A stretch of 64,000 nucleotides of DNA from Candidatus Krumholzibacteriota bacterium (GTDB taxonomy: Bacteria > Krumholzibacteriota > Krumholzibacteriia > JAJRXK01), in the NCBI GenBank assembly GCA_963727455.1, contig CAVSGG010000009.1, positions 160,001 through 224,000 of the forward strand, read 5' to 3'. Position numbers and translations under genes: made by a program. Shown here in pieces: positions 51,552 through 55,470 of this stretch. The notes under the pieces were generated by a model. That model worked only from the letters and a program-made list of their open reading frames with translations, was not told the DNA's origin and made no database searches. Position 1 is the stretch's first letter. Every line of letters starts with the position of its first letter.

Positions 51552-52037
51552 CTAGCCGTGGTACAAGACGCGCGCGGGGACTCCCGCGACCACTTCCTTG
51601 GCCGCCACGTCCCGCGTGACCACGGCGCCGGCTCCGATCACCGCGCCTTTGCCCACGTGGATGCCGCCCATGATGATGGCACCCGAACCGATGGAAACCT
51701 GATCGCCGATCTCGGTGGGCACGAAGCGATCCGCCCAGTCCTTCTCCTGTTCGGGTTTCCCACTGGGAGTCACCGCGCGCGGATGGAGATCGTTGATGAA
51801 AATGACGCCGTGACCGACGAAGCAACCGTCTCCGATGTGAACCCCTTCACAGATGAAGGTGTGAGAGCTGATCTTGCAGTAGCGTCCGATGACCGCGCCC
51901 TTCTGGATTTCCACGAAGGTGCCGATGCGGGATTCGTCTCCGATCTTGCAGCCGTAGAGATTCACGAAGCGATAGATCTTCACGTCCTTACCCAAGACGA
52001 CATCGTCTGCAATGCTCACGAATTCCAAGATCGTCAC
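51552..52037 (-). CDS. Hexapeptide-repeat sugar N-acetyltransferase (WbpD/FdtC-like)
   Basis: NLYGCKIG, FVEIQK, KISSHTFICEG, FIND..PRA, GAGAVVTRDV..GVPAR. Confidence 0.9.
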   Translation of the reverse strand: MTILEFVSIADDVVLGKDVKIYRFVNLYGCKIGDESRIGTFVEIQKGAVIGRYCKISSHTFICEGVHIGDGCFVGHGVIFINDLHPRAVTPSGKPEQEKDWADRFVPTEIGDQVSIGSGAIIMGGIHVGKGAVIGAGAVVTRDVAAKEVVAGVPARVLYHG

Positions 52038-52145
52038 CTTCTCTCGAGTTTGCTCTCATCCCAGCGCCCTTCGCGCCATCTTCTTCGTGATTCAAACCGC
52101 GTGCTGCTTCGAGAATAAACGGCTGGCCGCGGGGAAGCGAGTAGC

Positions 52146-52178
52146 AAAAAAAAGCGAGGTGAGCCTCGCTCACCTCGC
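52146..52178 (-). terminator. Strong intrinsic terminator
   Basis: Minus strand GCGAGGTGAGC-GAG-GCTCACCTCGC, 11-bp perfect stem, then T8. Confidence 0.9.
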
Positions 52179-52612
52179 CTCAGAGAAAATTCAGTTCACT
52201 TGGAAGAACACCCCCCTGCCCGTTCATGCTCAAGTTGCGCTACCGGTGGGAGCCGATGCTCGATGAAGCGCACAGGGGGGTGAAGAAGGTGCGCGGGCCG
52301 TACCCAACTTGGAGACCTTTGATCATGAGGATTGGTCCCAGTACCTCATGAGGAATGCCAAGTGCATGCAGCGTGAATGAGAATCCTCGCCACGCCCTGC
52401 GAGTGCATTCTCGCTGAGATGAGCTGACGGCGCCCGTGTGTCAGCCTCATCTCCAATCGCCACAAAGCGGTCCGACCCGCACGTGGTCGTGAAAAATCTG
52501 GACCGCAGTTTCCGCAGGCGGCCGGGAGCGGTCGTCCCGGGGAACGGTTTTGCACCGCTTCCGTTACCAAGAGAATCCAATCTCCAGGGCGGCGCAATGA
52601 CTTCTCTAGAAT
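52146..52612 (-). ncRNA. Candidate large (~470 nt) structured RNA of unknown class
   Basis: ORF-free; 8 or more hairpins, 5'/3' end pairing, potential pseudoknot, upstream TAGAAT -10 and downstream terminator (see findings). Confidence 0.6.
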
Positions 52613-52668
52613 GGAATGATTCTACCCATTCGAGTTCGTAAAGACCCGAACAGCCTTTCGTAGCAGGC

Positions 52669-55470
52669 TCAACGCGGCAGACTGGGGGCCAGAAGAACCG
52701 CGTTCAACAGGAGACGCGTGGTTACCGGCCAGATGCCCCGGAAGCTGGGATCTTCGGCGAAAAGGACGACCCTGCCCTTCTCGTGCTCCTCACAGATGAG
52801 GTAGGGCGCCCCCGCAAGGGCCTGTACGGTCTCCGGCCAGGCGAAACCGGCGATCAGGGGCTCGTGTTCTGCGTAGTTGACCACCGTTTGCTCCTGCTCT
52901 CCCGCGCGCAGCTGGCGTCCCTGCTGCACGAGCGCACAGATGGGCCTGCTCAAGCCGTAGCACAGGAAGTGGTAGGGAGCCCTCTCCAGGCGGAAGATGG
53001 CGCCCGGGATGGAAGGAGGCGAATCGGAGGGCTTGCTGGCGGCATGGCGCGCCTCGGCGGAGCCCTCGACGGCGGGTGGAGAACTTGCGTCCTCTTCGTT
53101 CGGATAGGGACTAGTTTCCGCTTCGGGCTCCGCTTCCAAGGCCGGCGCGGACTCGTCCCCCTCTGGCTGGGCCCCATCTTCCAGCGAGGCGGACAACCAT
53201 CCCGGCAGGTCCATGAGGGCCTCACTGGCCCTGCCCAGCGCCACCAGGGTCCCTCCCTGGTCCACCCAGCTGCGCAGATCCGGCAAGAGCGGAGCGTGCT
53301 TCTGGAGGTCCGGAATGACGATCACGTCCACCTCACGCAGGCGCAGCTCATCCAGTTGGTCCAGGAGCACCGTCGAGCAGTCGACTCCCATGTGCTCCTG
53401 CAGGACCCACAGCACACTGCCCAGGCTGGTCGGGCGCACTCCCGGTCCACCGGCGACCACGATGCGCGGCTGACGCAAGCGCAGCACGGCATCGCTTCCC
53501 AGGGATGGTCCCTCATCACTCCATGCGCTGCTGACGGGAACGACTTCAACCCCCGTGTCGCGCGCGACTCTTTCGAGCAAGGAATCCAGCGCGAGGGTGG
53601 AGTCCTGGACCGAACGCTTGAGCACCAGGCTACCCGCGGGAAAGCTCTCTTCGCTCCGCTTGAATGCTTCGCGGGCGAGGTAGACTCTCGCGCCCTCGCG
53701 CCAGAGCGCGGCCAGCGCGGCACAACTCGCGTTGTCTCGATCGGGAATCAGGTAGCCGTAGGACGCTTTTGCGGGATCGAGCGCCGGGCTCGACGGTATC
53801 TTCTCTGTCTTCACGCGAACGCTGGCGACTTCCAGATTTTTCGCGCTGTAGTAGGTGGTCAAGCCAAAGGCGAGCGGGAGACTCCACGCCGTCACGTCGT
53901 AGAAACGATCGCGAAGTCCCGCGCGGTGGCGTTCGGTCTCATCTTTCAGAAAGCCCTCATCCATGGGCTGATCCCAGCCCAAGAGATTTTGCAGAAGCGG
54001 ATAGGCTGCCTGCCTGAGCACGATACGGTAGCTTCCCGCGGGGAACTCGTGCTTGTTTTCCTCGCCGCTCTCCTGAGTGGAAACTCTGGCCTCGAAGCCA
54101 CGCTCGCTTCGCAGGACCTGCACCCCTTGCATGCTCAGAAGGCGCGCCAGGCGCCGCGCCTCCGCCGGAGCCTGGCCGAGGTCGAAGAGAATCTCCTTCG
54201 CATCGGCCTTGTCCGCCCTGCGCAGGGCCTCGTCGCGGAAGCGGCGCGAATACTGGAGCAGTTCCCTGCTCTTGGCGGCGCTCGTCCGGCAGCTCGTCAG
54301 CGCCGCCAAAAAATGATGCTGAACCGCATCGCGGTAGCTGCGGATGGCTCCGCTGCCATCCTCGATCCGCAGTCCGTCCGAGCTACCCTGTTCGAAAGTC
54401 ATCCCGATTGCGCCCTGTAGACTGGGCCAGGAATCTCCGTAACCGGGGTAGAAGAGATCGAAGTGCTCGCGCACGAAGTAGTCCACTCCAGCCGCATCAA
54501 ATGCCTTCGCATTCGCTTTCCCGTAGAGTTCGAGCCAGGATTGCAGCTCCTGGGGAAGCAACGGATTGTGCGGCAAGGCCGAGGGCGGAAAAAAGTAGGT
54601 GGAGGACGATCGCATTTCGTGCAAATCCAAAAAGACCTGGGGGCGCCAGCTTAGGAAGGCGGCAACCCTCGCCCTGGTCTCGGGCTGCGTGAGAAAGGCC
54701 CAGTCGCGGTTGAGATCGAAGAAGTTGTGGTTGTAACGGCCAGTTGGCCAGAGCTGCGTGTGTTCGATGGCCTCGGGATGGGGATCGGGACCGCCGACCT
54801 GACGCGTGAACGATCGCAGGTGCTGCAAGAAGCGACGTCTTCCATCGGGGTTCTGGCAGAGGTCGATGAGAACCACGAGGTGTTCGAGCAGCTCCTGGGT
54901 CTGTTCGCTACGATCGGCCGCCAAGTGGTAAGCCAAGAACATGCCCGCGTCGCAGCCGCTGGCCTCGTCCCCGTGAATTCCGCAAGCAACCCACACCGCG
55001 GGCAAAGGCGCTTGCGCGCCGCTCGTCTGCGCCTTGACGCTCGCGGAGAAATCCAGTGCGGTCCGCGACTGCAACAGTCCCTCTTGATCCTTCGAAGCGC
55101 TGATCGCCAACAGGAGCAGAGGATCGCCTTCGACGCTGCGGCCGATCTCCTGCACACTCACCCGATCGCTCGCCTCGGCCAAGAGCCGCGCGTAGGCGAG
55201 AAGCTGCTGGACCGAGGCCGGCCTCTCCCCCAGCGGGTGCCCCAGGAGCGAAGCCGGCGTGGGGACGGCCGGATCGTAGTCCGCGTCCCGCACCCACTGG
55301 AGGGCGGGATCATCCCCGGTGGTAGCCGCTGCCGCTTCCGGGGCGCACAGTACGCCGATCAAGAGAAAGAGTCCGAGCAAGCCCAGGGAGGCCGGGCCGA
55401 GAATCGCTCTGCATTTCCAGAAGGAAGAACGCACCGCCACCTCTCCGCGTTCGAGCGCCTCAAACTCCAC
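52669..55470 (-). CDS. M14-like zinc carboxypeptidase with C-terminal glutamine-amidotransferase-like domain, secreted
   Basis: IHGDE, NPDGR, DLNRDW, DLHEM, FYPGYGDSWP, FYDVTAWSLP; signal peptide. Confidence 0.88.
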   Translation of the reverse strand: MEFEALERGEVAVRSSFWKCRAILGPASLGLLGLFLLIGVLCAPEAAAATTGDDPALQWVRDADYDPAVPTPASLLGHPLGERPASVQQLLAYARLLAEASDRVSVQEIGRSVEGDPLLLLAISASKDQEGLLQSRTALDFSASVKAQTSGAQAPLPAVWVACGIHGDEASGCDAGMFLAYHLAADRSEQTQELLEHLVVLIDLCQNPDGRRRFLQHLRSFTRQVGGPDPHPEAIEHTQLWPTGRYNHNFFDLNRDWAFLTQPETRARVAAFLSWRPQVFLDLHEMRSSSTYFFPPSALPHNPLLPQELQSWLELYGKANAKAFDAAGVDYFVREHFDLFYPGYGDSWPSLQGAIGMTFEQGSSDGLRIEDGSGAIRSYRDAVQHHFLAALTSCRTSAAKSRELLQYSRRFRDEALRRADKADAKEILFDLGQAPAEARRLARLLSMQGVQVLRSERGFEARVSTQESGEENKHEFPAGSYRIVLRQAAYPLLQNLLGWDQPMDEGFLKDETERHRAGLRDRFYDVTAWSLPLAFGLTTYYSAKNLEVASVRVKTEKIPSSPALDPAKASYGYLIPDRDNASCAALAALWREGARVYLAREAFKRSEESFPAGSLVLKRSVQDSTLALDSLLERVARDTGVEVVPVSSAWSDEGPSLGSDAVLRLRQPRIVVAGGPGVRPTSLGSVLWVLQEHMGVDCSTVLLDQLDELRLREVDVIVIPDLQKHAPLLPDLRSWVDQGGTLVALGRASEALMDLPGWLSASLEDGAQPEGDESAPALEAEPEAETSPYPNEEDASSPPAVEGSAEARHAASKPSDSPPSIPGAIFRLERAPYHFLCYGLSRPICALVQQGRQLRAGEQEQTVVNYAEHEPLIAGFAWPETVQALAGAPYLICEEHEKGRVVLFAEDPSFRGIWPVTTRLLLNAVLLAPSLPR

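What the first reader, a model, noticed from the sequence alone, without database searches (positions are those of the whole stretch)
52146..52630. Candidate novel ~470-nt, multi-hairpin, pseudoknotted non-coding RNA with its own terminator
Seen (plus-strand coordinates; RNA on the minus strand): the 630-bp gap between the M14 peptidase and the acetyltransferase has no credible ORF but is tiled by inverted repeats: 52541-48/52554-62 (loop GCAAA), 52522-27/52535-40, 52467-73/52500-06, 52416-28/52440-53 (13 bp with one bulge), 52379-90/52399-412, 52323-30/52344-51, 52268-73/52289-94 and a long-range helix 52231-37/52305-11. The C-rich loop at 52273-82 is perfectly complementary to 52209-18, and this pairing crosses the 52231/52305 helix, giving a pseudoknot or a switch. 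The ends pair (AGAGAAG 52607-01 with UUUCUCU 52188-82, plus UCA/UGA) just before an 11-bp stem + U8 terminator, and a TAGAAT -10 lies at 52624-19. G-U pairs favour the minus strand. I found no hallmarks of RNase P, tmRNA, SRP, group II introns or known riboswitches. Inference: a stand-alone large ncRNA, or a large attenuator/antiterminator leader for the downstream acetyltransferase and TagF-like glycan genes.
Basis: partly seen in the sequence, partly recalled or inferred. Interest (0 to 1): 0.8.

Follow-up and report, generated by a model that had tools for sequence, protein, structure and literature searches.

The report
New structured RNA family in Krumholzibacteriota
The gap between the peptidase and acetyltransferase genes holds a real, previously undescribed folded non-coding RNA found only in one family of the uncultured phylum Krumholzibacteriota; its fold is well supported but its function is unknown.

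Summary
The finding holds, with corrections. Window 52144-52612 (minus strand) is a conserved, non-coding, structured RNA of about 470 nt that ends in a 14-bp intrinsic terminator.

- **Not a known family:** Rfam 15 finds nothing.
- **Conserved core:** a 196-nt core (52289-52484) occurs in 10 of 10 genomes of one Krumholzibacteriota family and in 0 of 141 genomes from eight other families of the phylum.
- **Covariation:** across 18 distinct sequences, 57 of 65 core base pairs change on both sides, and 91% of cells pair against 37-44% in slid controls.
- **Invariant loops:** three hairpin loops barely vary: CACACGGGCGCCG, GGGCGUGG and GGGACC.
six of ten are conserved and four are not. The proposed pseudoknot is not supported, and the long-range helices that organise the core were missed.
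- **Gene context:** the RNA always follows the M14 peptidase gene. In the three other genera it runs straight into a CYTH gene. The window's genus lacks CYTH but keeps the RNA, adds extra domains and a terminator, and carries a second shorter copy elsewhere.

Best reading: a stand-alone RNA acting through its G-rich loops, not an attenuator of the acetyltransferase. A riboswitch-like origin remains possible.

The parts
52619..52626 (-). -10-like promoter box GGTAGAAT (TAGAAT at 52624-52619). The inferred transcription start is near 52612.
   Evidence: GGTAGAA(T/C) is kept in 5 of 5 full-length homologues, although it lies in non-coding DNA 43 nt after the peptidase stop. Similar GGTAGACT and GGTAGTAT boxes lie 55-75 nt before the core in other genera. 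No sigma-70 -35/-10 pair passes the consensus scan, so promoter function is inferred, not shown.
52485..52612 (-). 5' domain specific to the window's genus. It includes hairpins 52541-52562 and 52522-52540.
   Evidence: Aligned in 5 sequences. h2 is kept at 5-6 of 6 pairs with an A-U to G-C change. Only the outer 4 bp of h1 are kept. The other genera have no equivalent of this length.
52289..52484 (-). Conserved core of the RNA family: 196 nt and 65 base pairs. P1/P2 close the domain, a P3-P4-P5 branch and a P6-P7 branch extend from it.
   Evidence: Covariance models R1 and R2. Full-length hits in 10 of 10 genomes of the family and 0 of 141 in other families. 57 of 65 pairs change on both sides. 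An independent MAFFT plus RNAalifold run on the second-copy group gives the same fold.
52291..52482 (-). P1/P2 closing helix: 52469-52482 pairs with 52291-52304 (13 pairs).
   Evidence: Helices 1 and 2: 12 of 13 pairs change on both sides, and 91-99% of cells pair. Coordinates.
52366..52465 (-). P3: 52458-52465 pairs with 52366-52373 (8 pairs). It encloses P4 and P5.
   Evidence: Helix 3: 8 of 8 pairs change on both sides, 83.9% of cells pair. Coordinates.
52416..52453 (-). P4 hairpin. Loop motif L1, CACACGGGCGCCG (52440-52428), contains the palindrome GGCGCC.
   Evidence: Helix 4: 9 of 13 pairs change on both sides. The motif is identical in 17 of 18 distinct sequences. In the 3.46-Mb assembly the 13-mer occurs only at the three RNA copies.
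52379..52412 (-). P5 hairpin. Loop motif L2 is GGGCGUGG (52397-52390).
   Evidence: Helix 5: 10 of 12 pairs change on both sides. The motif is present in 16 of 18 distinct sequences and missing in L017 and L128. L2 is complementary to either half of L1, 5 bp or 4 bp, and all these positions are invariant.
52307..52363 (-). P6: 52352-52363 pairs with 52307-52317. It encloses P7.
   Evidence: Helices 6 and 7: 9 of 9 pairs change on both sides. Coordinates.
52323..52351 (-). P7 hairpin. Loop motif L3 is GGGACC (52339-52334).
   Evidence: Helices 8-11. GGGACC is identical in 18 of 18 distinct sequences.
52209..52282 (-). 3' domain specific to the window's genus: a long hairpin closed by CACCCCCCUG (52282-52273) paired with CAGGGGGGUG (52218-52209).
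   Evidence: 9 of 9 pairs are kept in 5 of 5 sequences. C-G to U-A and A-U to G-C changes occur in G004 and G002.
52144..52181 (-). Intrinsic terminator: 14-bp stem at 52181-52151, then U8.
   Evidence: Terminator scan. The stem is kept with compensatory changes in 5 of 5 homologues, columns 445-474.
52669..55470 (-). Upstream gene: a 933-aa M14 zinc carboxypeptidase family protein.
   Evidence: Pfam PF00246, E = 4e-22. An orthologue lies directly upstream of the RNA in every genome of the family where it was found, 9 of 10 genomes.
51552..52037 (-). Downstream gene: a hexapeptide-repeat acetyltransferase. It is not a conserved neighbour.
   Evidence: Pfam PF00132, E = 1.6e-24. The same kind of gene follows the RNA in G001 and G002, but G004 has a convergent Dus gene there.

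Best explanation
Window 52144-52612 (minus strand) encodes a member of a previously undescribed family of structured non-coding RNA, confined to one family of Candidatus Krumholzibacteriota.

**Structure.** The ancient part is a 196-nt core (52289-52484). A long closing helix (P1/P2) carries two branches: P3 with hairpins P4 and P5, and P6 with hairpin P7. The three hairpin loops carry nearly invariant G-rich motifs: CACACGGGCGCCG, GGGCGUGG and GGGACC.

**The window's copy.** In this genus the core has gained a 128-nt 5' domain, a 74-nt 3' hairpin and its own intrinsic terminator. This gives a self-contained transcript of about 470 nt that starts at a conserved -10-like box just after the M14 peptidase gene.

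**How I think it works (inferred).** The RNA acts as an RNA in its own right. The stems covary freely while the loops do not, so the stems serve as a scaffold that displays the three loops to a partner. The partner could be a protein that recognises YGGG(C/A) loops, or another RNA. The partner RNA could be a second copy of itself through the GGCGCC palindrome, or loop L2 within the same molecule. I do not think it attenuates the acetyltransferase.

**History (inferred).** The ancestral gene order was peptidase > RNA > CYTH, with Dus convergent, and the RNA was co-transcribed with the CYTH gene as its long leader. That link was lost in the window's genus while the RNA was kept and duplicated.

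**My odds.** Real structured RNA about 0.95. Absent from known families about 0.9. Stand-alone or trans role rather than cis regulation about 0.55.
For: **Conservation**
- DNA is conserved from the -10-like box to the terminator in 5 full-length homologues, while the flanks diverge.
- The RNA is 83%, 74% and 73% identical at nucleotide level in G001, G004 and G002. The adjacent peptidase is only 60%, 45% and 43% identical at protein level.

**Structure**
- RNAalifold on the 5 full-length sequences gives 145 pairs, 25 with compensatory change.
- On 18 distinct core sequences, 91.2% of cells pair against 65.5 +/- 1.0% in shuffles and 37-44% in slid controls. 57 of 65 pairs change on both sides, and 0 of 500 shuffles reach any measure.
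- The same fold is predicted independently, by MAFFT plus RNAalifold, on the five second-copy sequences, with 19 covarying pairs.
- Strand: 98 G-U cells against 27 A-C cells, and the terminator points the same way.

**Not coding:**

**Not a known family**
- 0 Rfam matches at gathering score in the window and in 8 related loci. Only sub-threshold noise at E <= 5-10.
- RNase P RNA is found elsewhere in 40 of 40 relatives. 6S RNA is found elsewhere in this assembly.

**Distribution**
- 10 of 10 genomes of the family, 0 of 141 in eight other families.
- In a scan of 185,579 species, 8 of 106 pattern-matching loci are true model hits. Five of the eight carry Krumholzibacteriota or Krumholzibacteriia titles and three are titled 'uncultured bacterium'.

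**Independence from the downstream gene**
- CYTH follows the core in 5 of 5 genomes of the other three genera. It was not found in 0 of 5 genomes of the window's genus.
- That genus still keeps the core loops invariant with compensatory stem changes, and has a terminator.
- Its downstream genes differ.
- It carries a second copy, with its own conserved promoter-like box, facing a convergent gene.

**Expression hint**
- In 4 metatranscriptome runs from 4 studies, 6 short contigs (110-220 nt, under 95% alike) lie wholly inside 52237-52476. None lies on the peptidase gene.
Against: - No direct evidence of a discrete transcript. The RNA runs are assembled contigs of relatives. They were found through this stretch, cannot show ends or strand, and could include DNA.
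- No sigma-70 promoter passes the consensus scan, so the RNA could be made only by read-through from the peptidase gene.
- In the three other genera there is no terminator between the core and CYTH, except a terminator-like hairpin in one metagenome contig, L132. There the RNA is by position a 5' leader, which is what a riboswitch or protein-binding leader looks like.
- In the window, G001 and G002 an acetyltransferase does follow the terminator on the same strand, so attenuation cannot be excluded for these three.
- No partner protein or RNA has been identified.
- The loop-loop and dimer ideas rest on invariant bases, so covariation cannot test them.
- The 18-sequence alignment was fitted to the model, which favours the modelled structure.
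- The 5' and 3' domains rest on only five sequences from about three lineages.
Confidence: 0.55

Rival explanations
1. Cis-regulatory leader, either a riboswitch or a protein-binding leader. The core senses a metabolite or protein and controls the gene that follows. That gene is CYTH in the other genera. In the window it would be the acetyltransferase, controlled through the 52151-52181 terminator.
For: - The core lies 25-110 nt in front of the CYTH start codon, on the same strand, in 5 of 5 genomes of three genera and in metagenome contigs L136 and L132.
- The link to CYTH holds even in G005, where only a truncated peptidase homologue lies about 780 nt upstream.
- L132 has a hairpin plus U-run between the core and CYTH.
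- In the window, G001 and G002 a same-strand acetyltransferase follows the terminator.
- Size and branching resemble large riboswitch aptamers (recalled, not tested).
Against: - The window's genus has no CYTH (0 of 5) yet keeps the RNA under selection.
- In G004 the gene after the terminator is a convergent Dus.
- All five second-copy loci face a convergent gene.
- The conserved bases sit in hairpin loops, not in junctions or internal loops where ligand pockets usually lie.
- No conserved alternative pairing between the core and the terminator or the start codon was found.
- A 100-nt extra hairpin separates the core from the terminator.
Confidence: 0.28
2. 3' UTR element of the M14 peptidase mRNA. 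The structure stabilises, terminates or processes the peptidase transcript, and any free RNA is a 3'-UTR-derived fragment without its own promoter.
For: - The RNA follows the peptidase gene on the same strand in all 9 genomes where the peptidase was found.
- There is no terminator between the peptidase stop (52669) and the RNA.
- No consensus promoter was found.
Against: - The second copy in the window's genus lies after unrelated genes (a DUF4252 protein in L021 and L019, other genes in L129 and L142). It has its own conserved box, TGGAAAAAG...GTACTAAACT.
- G003 has this second copy but no detectable peptidase.
- The GGTAGAAT box is conserved in 5 of 5 homologues.
- A plain stabiliser would not need 65 covarying pairs and three invariant loops.
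Confidence: 0.1
3. Not a functional RNA. The inverted repeats are chance features of GC-rich intergenic DNA, a decayed gene, or a small protein-coding gene.
For: - The plus strand folds as well as the minus strand (z = -5.52).
- The GC-rich sequence gives long open frames of 83-85 aa.
Against: - Covariation in 57 of 65 pairs across 18 sequences from four genera.
- Conservation is higher than in the neighbouring protein gene.
- The ORFs are broken in homologues.
- G-U pairs far outnumber A-C cells.
Confidence: 0.03
4. A divergent copy of a universal RNA such as RNase P, 6S, tmRNA or SRP that Rfam models miss. RF00010 was not found in this assembly, which made the RNase P version worth checking.
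For: RF00010 gives 0 matches in G000.
Against: - RNase P RNA is found at 273-302 bits in all 9 other genomes of the family, which also carry the new RNA, and in 40 of 40 relatives overall. G000 is only 88.85% complete.
- 6S RNA is present at G000:C5.
- No Rfam model gives even a weak hit on the core.
- tmRNA and SRP were not searched for separately in the genome.
Confidence: 0.01

Closest known systems
Orphan structured bacterial ncRNAs found by comparative genomics (raiA, OLE, GOLLD, ROOL, HEARO and the motif catalogues; names recalled, all represented in Rfam)
   Same: - A multi-stem fold well supported by covariation.
- Nearly invariant loop nucleotides.
- A narrow lineage range.
- Recurrent gene neighbours.
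- No known function.
- A longer form (about 470 nt) in one lineage.
   Different: - No sequence or structure match to any of the 4227 Rfam models.
- The host phylum (Krumholzibacteriota) is not one I know to hold any of these classes (recalled).
- The conserved core is only 196 nt.
- The neighbours, an M14 peptidase and a CYTH gene, are new for such an RNA. My searches found no paper linking them.
Riboswitch-type leaders, and riboswitch-containing small RNAs that end at a terminator (EutX/Rli55 and SreA, recalled)
   Same: - A long structured 5' leader directly in front of one gene family (CYTH) in three genera.
- In the window, the same aptamer-sized domain is followed by an intrinsic terminator and exists as a separate unit.
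   Different: - No ligand is known.
- Conservation lies in hairpin loops rather than junctions.
- No conserved switching helix.
- The RNA persists where the regulated gene is gone.
Protein-sequestering RNAs with repeated loop motifs (CsrB/RsmZ type, recalled)
   Same: Several hairpins each display a similar short G-rich motif in the loop: CGGGCG, UGGGCG and YGGGAC. The stems vary freely.
   Different: - Only three motifs, not GGA.
- No CsrA-like partner has been identified.
- The hairpins are held in a fixed branched architecture rather than strung in a row.
Kissing-loop dimerisation hairpins (HIV-1 DIS type, recalled)
   Same: An invariant 11-nt loop contains a 6-nt GC palindrome, GGCGCC.
   Different: - This is purely a sequence observation.
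- The same loop is also complementary to loop L2 of the same molecule, so an intramolecular contact is at least as likely.
- Nothing was tested.
Pseudomonas sRNA P31 (RF01676), the best-scoring Rfam row in the region by bit score
   Same: A GC-rich hairpin next to an A/U run.
   Different: 16.9 bits against a gathering score of 40, E = 2.4. The hit is on the plus strand and covers only the terminator, 52112-52178. This is a chance match to a terminator shape.

Membership tests
Any Rfam 15 family (4227 models) | Score at or above the family's gathering threshold | tested here: not met
   0 matches in the 64-kb window and 0 in 8 related loci. At E <= 10 or 5, only 3 + 3 sub-threshold rows appear and none lies on the core.
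RNase P RNA, bacterial type A (RF00010) | Match to the model, and a single essential copy per genome | tested here: not met
   The region has no RF00010 match. All 9 other genomes of the family have a separate RNase P RNA at 273-302 bits as well as the new RNA.
6S RNA (RF00013) | Match to the model, and a rod-like fold with a central bubble | tested here: not met
   6S is found elsewhere, at G000:C5:583654-583833, 60.2 bits. The new RNA is branched, not rod-like.
Riboswitch (general class) | Lies in the 5' UTR of the gene it controls | tested here: inconclusive
   Met by position in 5 of 5 genomes of three genera, in front of CYTH. Not met for the second copy, which faces a convergent gene, nor for G004. 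Possible for the window, G001 and G002.
Riboswitch (general class) | Expression platform: a conserved alternative pairing between aptamer and terminator or start site | tested here: not met
   The candidate switch helices h3 and h7 are not conserved. Flank duplexes are inconsistent across 17 sequences.
Riboswitch (general class) | Specific ligand binding that changes the structure | not testable with these tools
   Needs in-line probing, SHAPE or ITC.
Intrinsic (Rho-independent) terminator | GC-rich stem-loop followed by a U-run, on the strand of the RNA | tested here: met
   14-bp stem at 52181-52151 with 8 G-C pairs, then T8. Kept with compensatory changes in 5 of 5 homologues.
Stand-alone ncRNA gene | Own promoter and a discrete transcript | tested here: inconclusive
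   A conserved -10-like box is present, but no consensus promoter. RNA-library contigs cover only the core and cannot show ends.
Protein-coding small ORF | An open frame kept in homologues | tested here: not met
   Both window ORFs are frameshifted or stopped in 4 of 4 homologues.
CsrB/RsmZ-like sponge RNA | Repeated protein-binding motif in several hairpin loops, and a known partner protein | tested here: inconclusive
   Three loops share YGGG(C/A). No partner was sought or found.

The most novel reading that the evidence does not exclude
The core is a new class of self-assembling or catalytic RNA that works with the triphosphate-tunnel (CYTH) enzyme encoded next to it. One version is an RNA that dimerises through the invariant GGCGCC loop, with the other two G-rich loops forming an active or binding site for a triphosphate compound or a 5'-triphosphate RNA end. 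In the window's genus the RNA would then have become independent of the protein and grown to about 470 nt. Nothing here excludes this. The evidence shows only that the loops are under far stronger constraint than a simple scaffold needs, and that the link to CYTH is ancestral.
Probability: 0.08. Interest if true: 0.85.

Novelty: new variant of a known kind. Interest (0 to 1): 0.55.

Why it matters
- **New biology in an uncultured phylum.** Krumholzibacteriota is known only from metagenomes. My searches found no paper that mentions the phylum together with non-coding RNA.
- **Ready for experiments.** The family now has a well-supported structure, a covariance model, defined invariant loops and a clear gene neighbourhood (M14 peptidase upstream, CYTH downstream). 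That is what structure probing, ligand or protein fishing and structural work need as a starting point.
- **A natural experiment.** One genus lost the neighbouring CYTH gene but kept, enlarged and duplicated the RNA. This separates the RNA's own role from any role as a leader.
- **Limits.** The family is narrow (10 species representatives plus a few metagenome contigs) and its function is unknown. It is a solid new entry for RNA catalogues, not a surprise that changes a field.

Tried and rejected
**Hypotheses tested and rejected**
- **Known RNA family.** Rfam at gathering score and at E <= 10 or 5 gave nothing usable.
- **Divergent RNase P.** I raised this when RF00010 was missing from G000. 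I dropped it because 40 of 40 relatives have a normal RNase P RNA.
- **Small protein.** The ORFs are not conserved.
Not conserved.
- **A helix joining the sequences just outside the core.** A clear 15-bp extension exists in L014 only. The other 16 sequences are inconsistent.
- **Extra helices or pseudoknots from covariation inside the core.** A first scan was too permissive to read. A stacked-run scan found only the consensus helices plus complementarity between the invariant loops L1 and L2, which cannot covary.
- **Other sites in the genome using the loop motifs.** The 13-mer occurs only at the three RNA copies, and the shorter motifs occur at or below chance.
- **Homologues outside the family.** 0 of 141 genomes in other families of the phylum, though this search used Infernal's stricter filters. 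In the 185,579-species pattern scan, 98 of 106 loci were chance matches such as Streptomyces. L126 and L110 gave only partial hits at E = 0.028 and 0.13.
- **Metagenome contigs.** 4 of 15 (L134, L139, L140, L143) did not pass the model.

**Weak or unusable observations**
- **Habitats.** The 24 listed runs mostly hold small shares of the words and I laid only four RNA runs, so I draw no habitat conclusion.
- **Uncovered parts in the RNA runs.** 52002-52236 and 52478-52900 have no cover. This is not evidence of absence.
- **NCBIfam.** It gave no name for the CYTH protein, the peptidase or the gene facing the second copy.

**Literature**
- 'Krumholzibacteriota' plus 'noncoding RNA': 0 papers.
- 'CYTH' plus 'riboswitch': 5 papers, none on point judging by listing and abstract starts only.
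- A five-term search listed general motif-discovery papers, and none of the 12 listed holds the phylum name.
- In the 2026 preprint 10.64898/2026.10.21.760802 I ran a term search only: 0 occurrences of CYTH, Krumholz, M14, carboxypeptidase or triphosphate tunnel.
- Supplementary motif lists of these papers were not opened and could hold an unnamed equivalent.
Full report
**1. What is in the sequence**

The 523-bp gap between the M14 peptidase gene (52669-55470, minus; Pfam PF00246, E = 4e-22) and the hexapeptide acetyltransferase gene (51552-52037, minus; PF00132) was read on the minus strand. TAGAAT lies at 52624-52619. A 14-bp stem at 52181-52151 followed by T8 is picked up as an intrinsic terminator on the minus strand.

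The 485-nt stretch folds better than all 100 dinucleotide shuffles on both strands, with z = -4.19 on the minus strand and -5.52 on the plus strand. Thermodynamics alone therefore does not pick the strand.

Rfam 15 finds nothing at gathering score in the whole window. At E <= 10 it gives three sub-threshold rows in 51900-52900. The highest-scoring (P31, 16.9 bits against a cut-off of 40) covers just the terminator on the wrong strand.

**2. Conservation and coding potential**

BLASTN against 41 related genomes found the stretch in 5 of them, counting the window's own:
- G001, 83% identity.
- G004, 74%.
- G002, 73%.
- A 26-nt piece in G007.
- A second place in the same assembly, G000:C8, at 89-90%.

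In the five-sequence alignment, conservation starts at GGTAGAA(T/C), 43 nt after the peptidase stop, and ends at the terminator. The flanks diverge.

The indels are mostly 1, 2, 4 or 7 nt. The window's 83-85 aa ORFs are frameshifted or stopped in all four homologues, so this is not a protein gene.

The RNA is better conserved than its neighbour. The C-terminal 437 residues of the peptidase are 75%, 60%, 45% and 43% identical in the same four loci.

**3. Structure of the full-length form**

RNAalifold on the five sequences (A2, 482 columns) gives 145 pairs, 25 of them with a compensatory change.

| Helix | Result |
|---|---|
| h2, h4, h5, h6, h9 | Kept. Compensatory changes in h2, h4, h6 and h9 |
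| h1 | Only the outer 4 bp kept |
| h3 | 4 of 7 pairs in G004 and G002 |
| h7 | 1 of 6 pairs |
| h8 | 3-4 of 7 pairs |
| h10 | 0 of 7 pairs |

The C-rich/G-rich pairing (h9) is the stem of a long 3' hairpin (52209-52282).

**4. The conserved core and its family**

*Models and hits within the family*

- I built a covariance model of the central 196 nt (52289-52484; R1). It hit 9 of 10 genomes of the window's taxonomic family, always over its full length.
- The hits included a second, more distant class within the window's own genus, and single copies in the other genera.
- A model rebuilt from 13 hits (R2) found the RNA in 10 of 10 genomes of the family. It found none in 141 genomes of eight other families of the phylum. 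That search used Infernal's stricter filters.

*Wider scans*

- A three-part exact pattern taken from the invariant loops was scanned over one genome for each of 185,579 species. It gave 106 loci.
- Only 8 of these pass the models. Five carry titles naming Candidatus Krumholzibacteriota or Krumholzibacteriia, and three are 'uncultured bacterium'. That is the basis for naming the phylum.
- A metagenome scan gave 15 contigs, and 11 pass the model.

*Covariation*

- The 26 hits make 18 distinct sequences. On them, 91.2% of cells pair against 65.5 +/- 1.0% in shuffles and 37-44% when partners are slid by 1-3 columns.
- 57 of 65 pairs change on both sides, and 0 of 500 shuffles reach any of the five measures.
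- That alignment was fitted to the model. As a check, I ran MAFFT plus RNAalifold on the five second-copy sequences alone. It predicts the same helices with 19 covarying pairs.
- G-U cells (98) outnumber A-C cells (27), which fits the minus strand.

*Architecture in window coordinates*

| Element | Coordinates |
|---|---|
| P1/P2 | 52469-82 with 52291-304 |
| P3 | 52458-65 with 52366-73 |
| P4 hairpin | 52416-53 |
| P5 hairpin | 52379-412 |
| P6 | 52352-63 with 52307-17 |
| P7 hairpin | 52323-51 |

*Invariant loop motifs*

The stems vary freely while three loop motifs hardly vary.

| Motif | Sequence | Distinct sequences with the motif |
|---|---|---|
| L1 | CACACGGGCGCCG | 17 of 18 |
| L2 | GGGCGUGG | 16 of 18 |
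| L3 | GGGACC | 18 of 18 |

- L1 contains the palindrome GGCGCC.
- L2 can pair with either half of L1 (5 bp or 4 bp). These are the only stacked complementary runs outside the consensus structure, and they are invariant, so they cannot be tested by covariation.
- In the 3.46-Mb assembly the L1 13-mer occurs only at the three RNA copies.

**5. Gene context and history**

*Upstream*
- The gene upstream of the core is an orthologue of the window's M14 peptidase in G006, G007, G008 and G009, at 36-40% identity.
- A family-wide search found the peptidase in 9 of 10 genomes, always next to the RNA.
- In G005 only a shorter homologue lies about 780 nt upstream. In G003 neither the peptidase nor the long form of the RNA was found.

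*Downstream*
- In all 5 genomes of the three other genera, the core is followed on the same strand, after 25-110 nt and without a terminator, by a CYTH-domain gene (PF01928, E = 6.6e-15).
- CYTH was not found in any of the 5 genomes of the window's genus with this query.
- A convergent Dus gene follows CYTH in G005 and G006. In G004 it directly follows the RNA's terminator.

*Inferred history*
- The simplest history is an ancestral order of peptidase > RNA > CYTH with Dus convergent. CYTH was then lost in the window's genus.
- In that genus the RNA gained a 128-nt 5' domain, a 74-nt 3' hairpin and a terminator.
- A second, shorter copy arose elsewhere. In the window's assembly it is at G000:C6:106199-106394.
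- That second copy sits behind a conserved box, TGGAAAAAG...GTACTAAACT, and faces a convergent gene.

*The C8 copy*
- The copy on G000:C8 is not a paralogue. C9:12-228961 is collinear with C8:260690-498684 at 82-88% identity, so the assembly mixes two related genomes.

**6. Expression**

One search for public runs listed 24, six of them RNA libraries holding small shares of the stretch. I laid four RNA runs from four studies on 51900-52900 at 85% likeness.
- Six short contigs (110-220 nt, all under 95% alike, so from relatives) lie wholly inside 52237-52476.
- One 41-nt piece lies on the acetyltransferase. Nothing lies on the peptidase gene.
- These are contigs found through this very stretch. 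They show that core-like sequence is present in RNA libraries and nothing more.

**7. How it most likely works**

*Shown*
- A conserved branched fold.
- Invariant loops.
- A terminator.
- Retention of the RNA after loss of the neighbouring gene.
- Duplication.

*Inferred*
- The RNA acts on its own by presenting its three G-rich loops to a partner. I put this at about 0.55.
- The loops are constrained while the stems are not. That pattern is typical of protein-binding or RNA-docking sites rather than of ligand pockets in junctions.
- The main rival, at about 0.28, is a riboswitch-like or protein-binding leader. This is what the RNA looks like by position in front of CYTH.
- Three findings speak against the rival: persistence without CYTH, non-conserved downstream genes, and the lack of any conserved switching helix.
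- A peptidase 3' UTR element (about 0.1) does not explain the second copy.
- Chance, a small protein, and divergent RNase P or 6S are excluded.

**8. Comparison with what is known, and novelty**

The RNA belongs to no Rfam family. It resembles the orphan structured RNAs of bacteria in kind, but not in sequence or fold.

My literature searches found no report of an RNA in this phylum, or of one linked to CYTH or M14 genes.

I rate it as a new RNA family of a familiar general kind: moderately interesting, narrow in range, and ready for experiments.

Noticed in passing
G000:C9:12-228961 against G000:C8:260690-498684 (the window is C9:160001-224000): About 228 kb of the window's contig is collinear with another contig of the same assembly at 82-88% nucleotide identity. 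The assembly therefore appears to mix two related genomes (stated contamination 6.68%). The 'second copy' of the peptidase-RNA-acetyltransferase locus on C8 is an orthologue, not a paralogue.
   Followed up: yes
G000:C6:106199-106394 (L021 1501-1696): A shorter paralogue of the RNA: the core plus one 5' hairpin, with no 3' domain. It lies after a DUF4252 gene and abuts a convergent 199-aa gene of no known family. A conserved promoter-like box, TGGAAAAAG...GTACTAAACT, lies upstream. The same type is present in G001, G003, G004 and three metagenome contigs.
   Followed up: partly
G000, whole assembly: RNase P RNA (RF00010) is not found in this assembly, although all 40 relatives searched have it. 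This is most likely an assembly gap, since the assembly is 88.85% complete.
   Followed up: yes
L013:1720-2373 and the equivalent genes in L145-L149: A 217-aa CYTH (triphosphate tunnel) protein gene directly follows the RNA in all 5 genomes of three genera. It was not found in the 5 genomes of the window's genus. NCBIfam gives it no name.
   Followed up: partly
window 52669-55470 (minus): The M14 peptidase is 933 aa, but Pfam covers only residues 93-266. About 650 C-terminal residues have no assigned domain, yet they are conserved across the family at 36-75% identity.
   Followed up: no
L132, just 3' of the core (core at 709-897, minus): In this metagenome contig a GC-rich hairpin followed by a U-run lies between the core and the CYTH start codon. 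It is the only non-g1 locus seen with a terminator-like element there.
   Followed up: no
G005:C1:511011-511421 (L162): Upstream of the RNA in G005, the peptidase homologue matches only residues 308-442 of the query, within a 387-aa open frame. It is possibly a truncated or diverged gene.
   Followed up: no
G000:C5:583654-583833: A 6S RNA is present at 60.2 bits, above the Rfam cut-off.
   Followed up: no
L129 (G004:C7), 5' of the core: The second-copy RNA of G004 has a 5' leader about 90 nt longer than the others. It carries two similar hairpins containing UCGAAAUGCC, which looks like an internal duplication.
   Followed up: no
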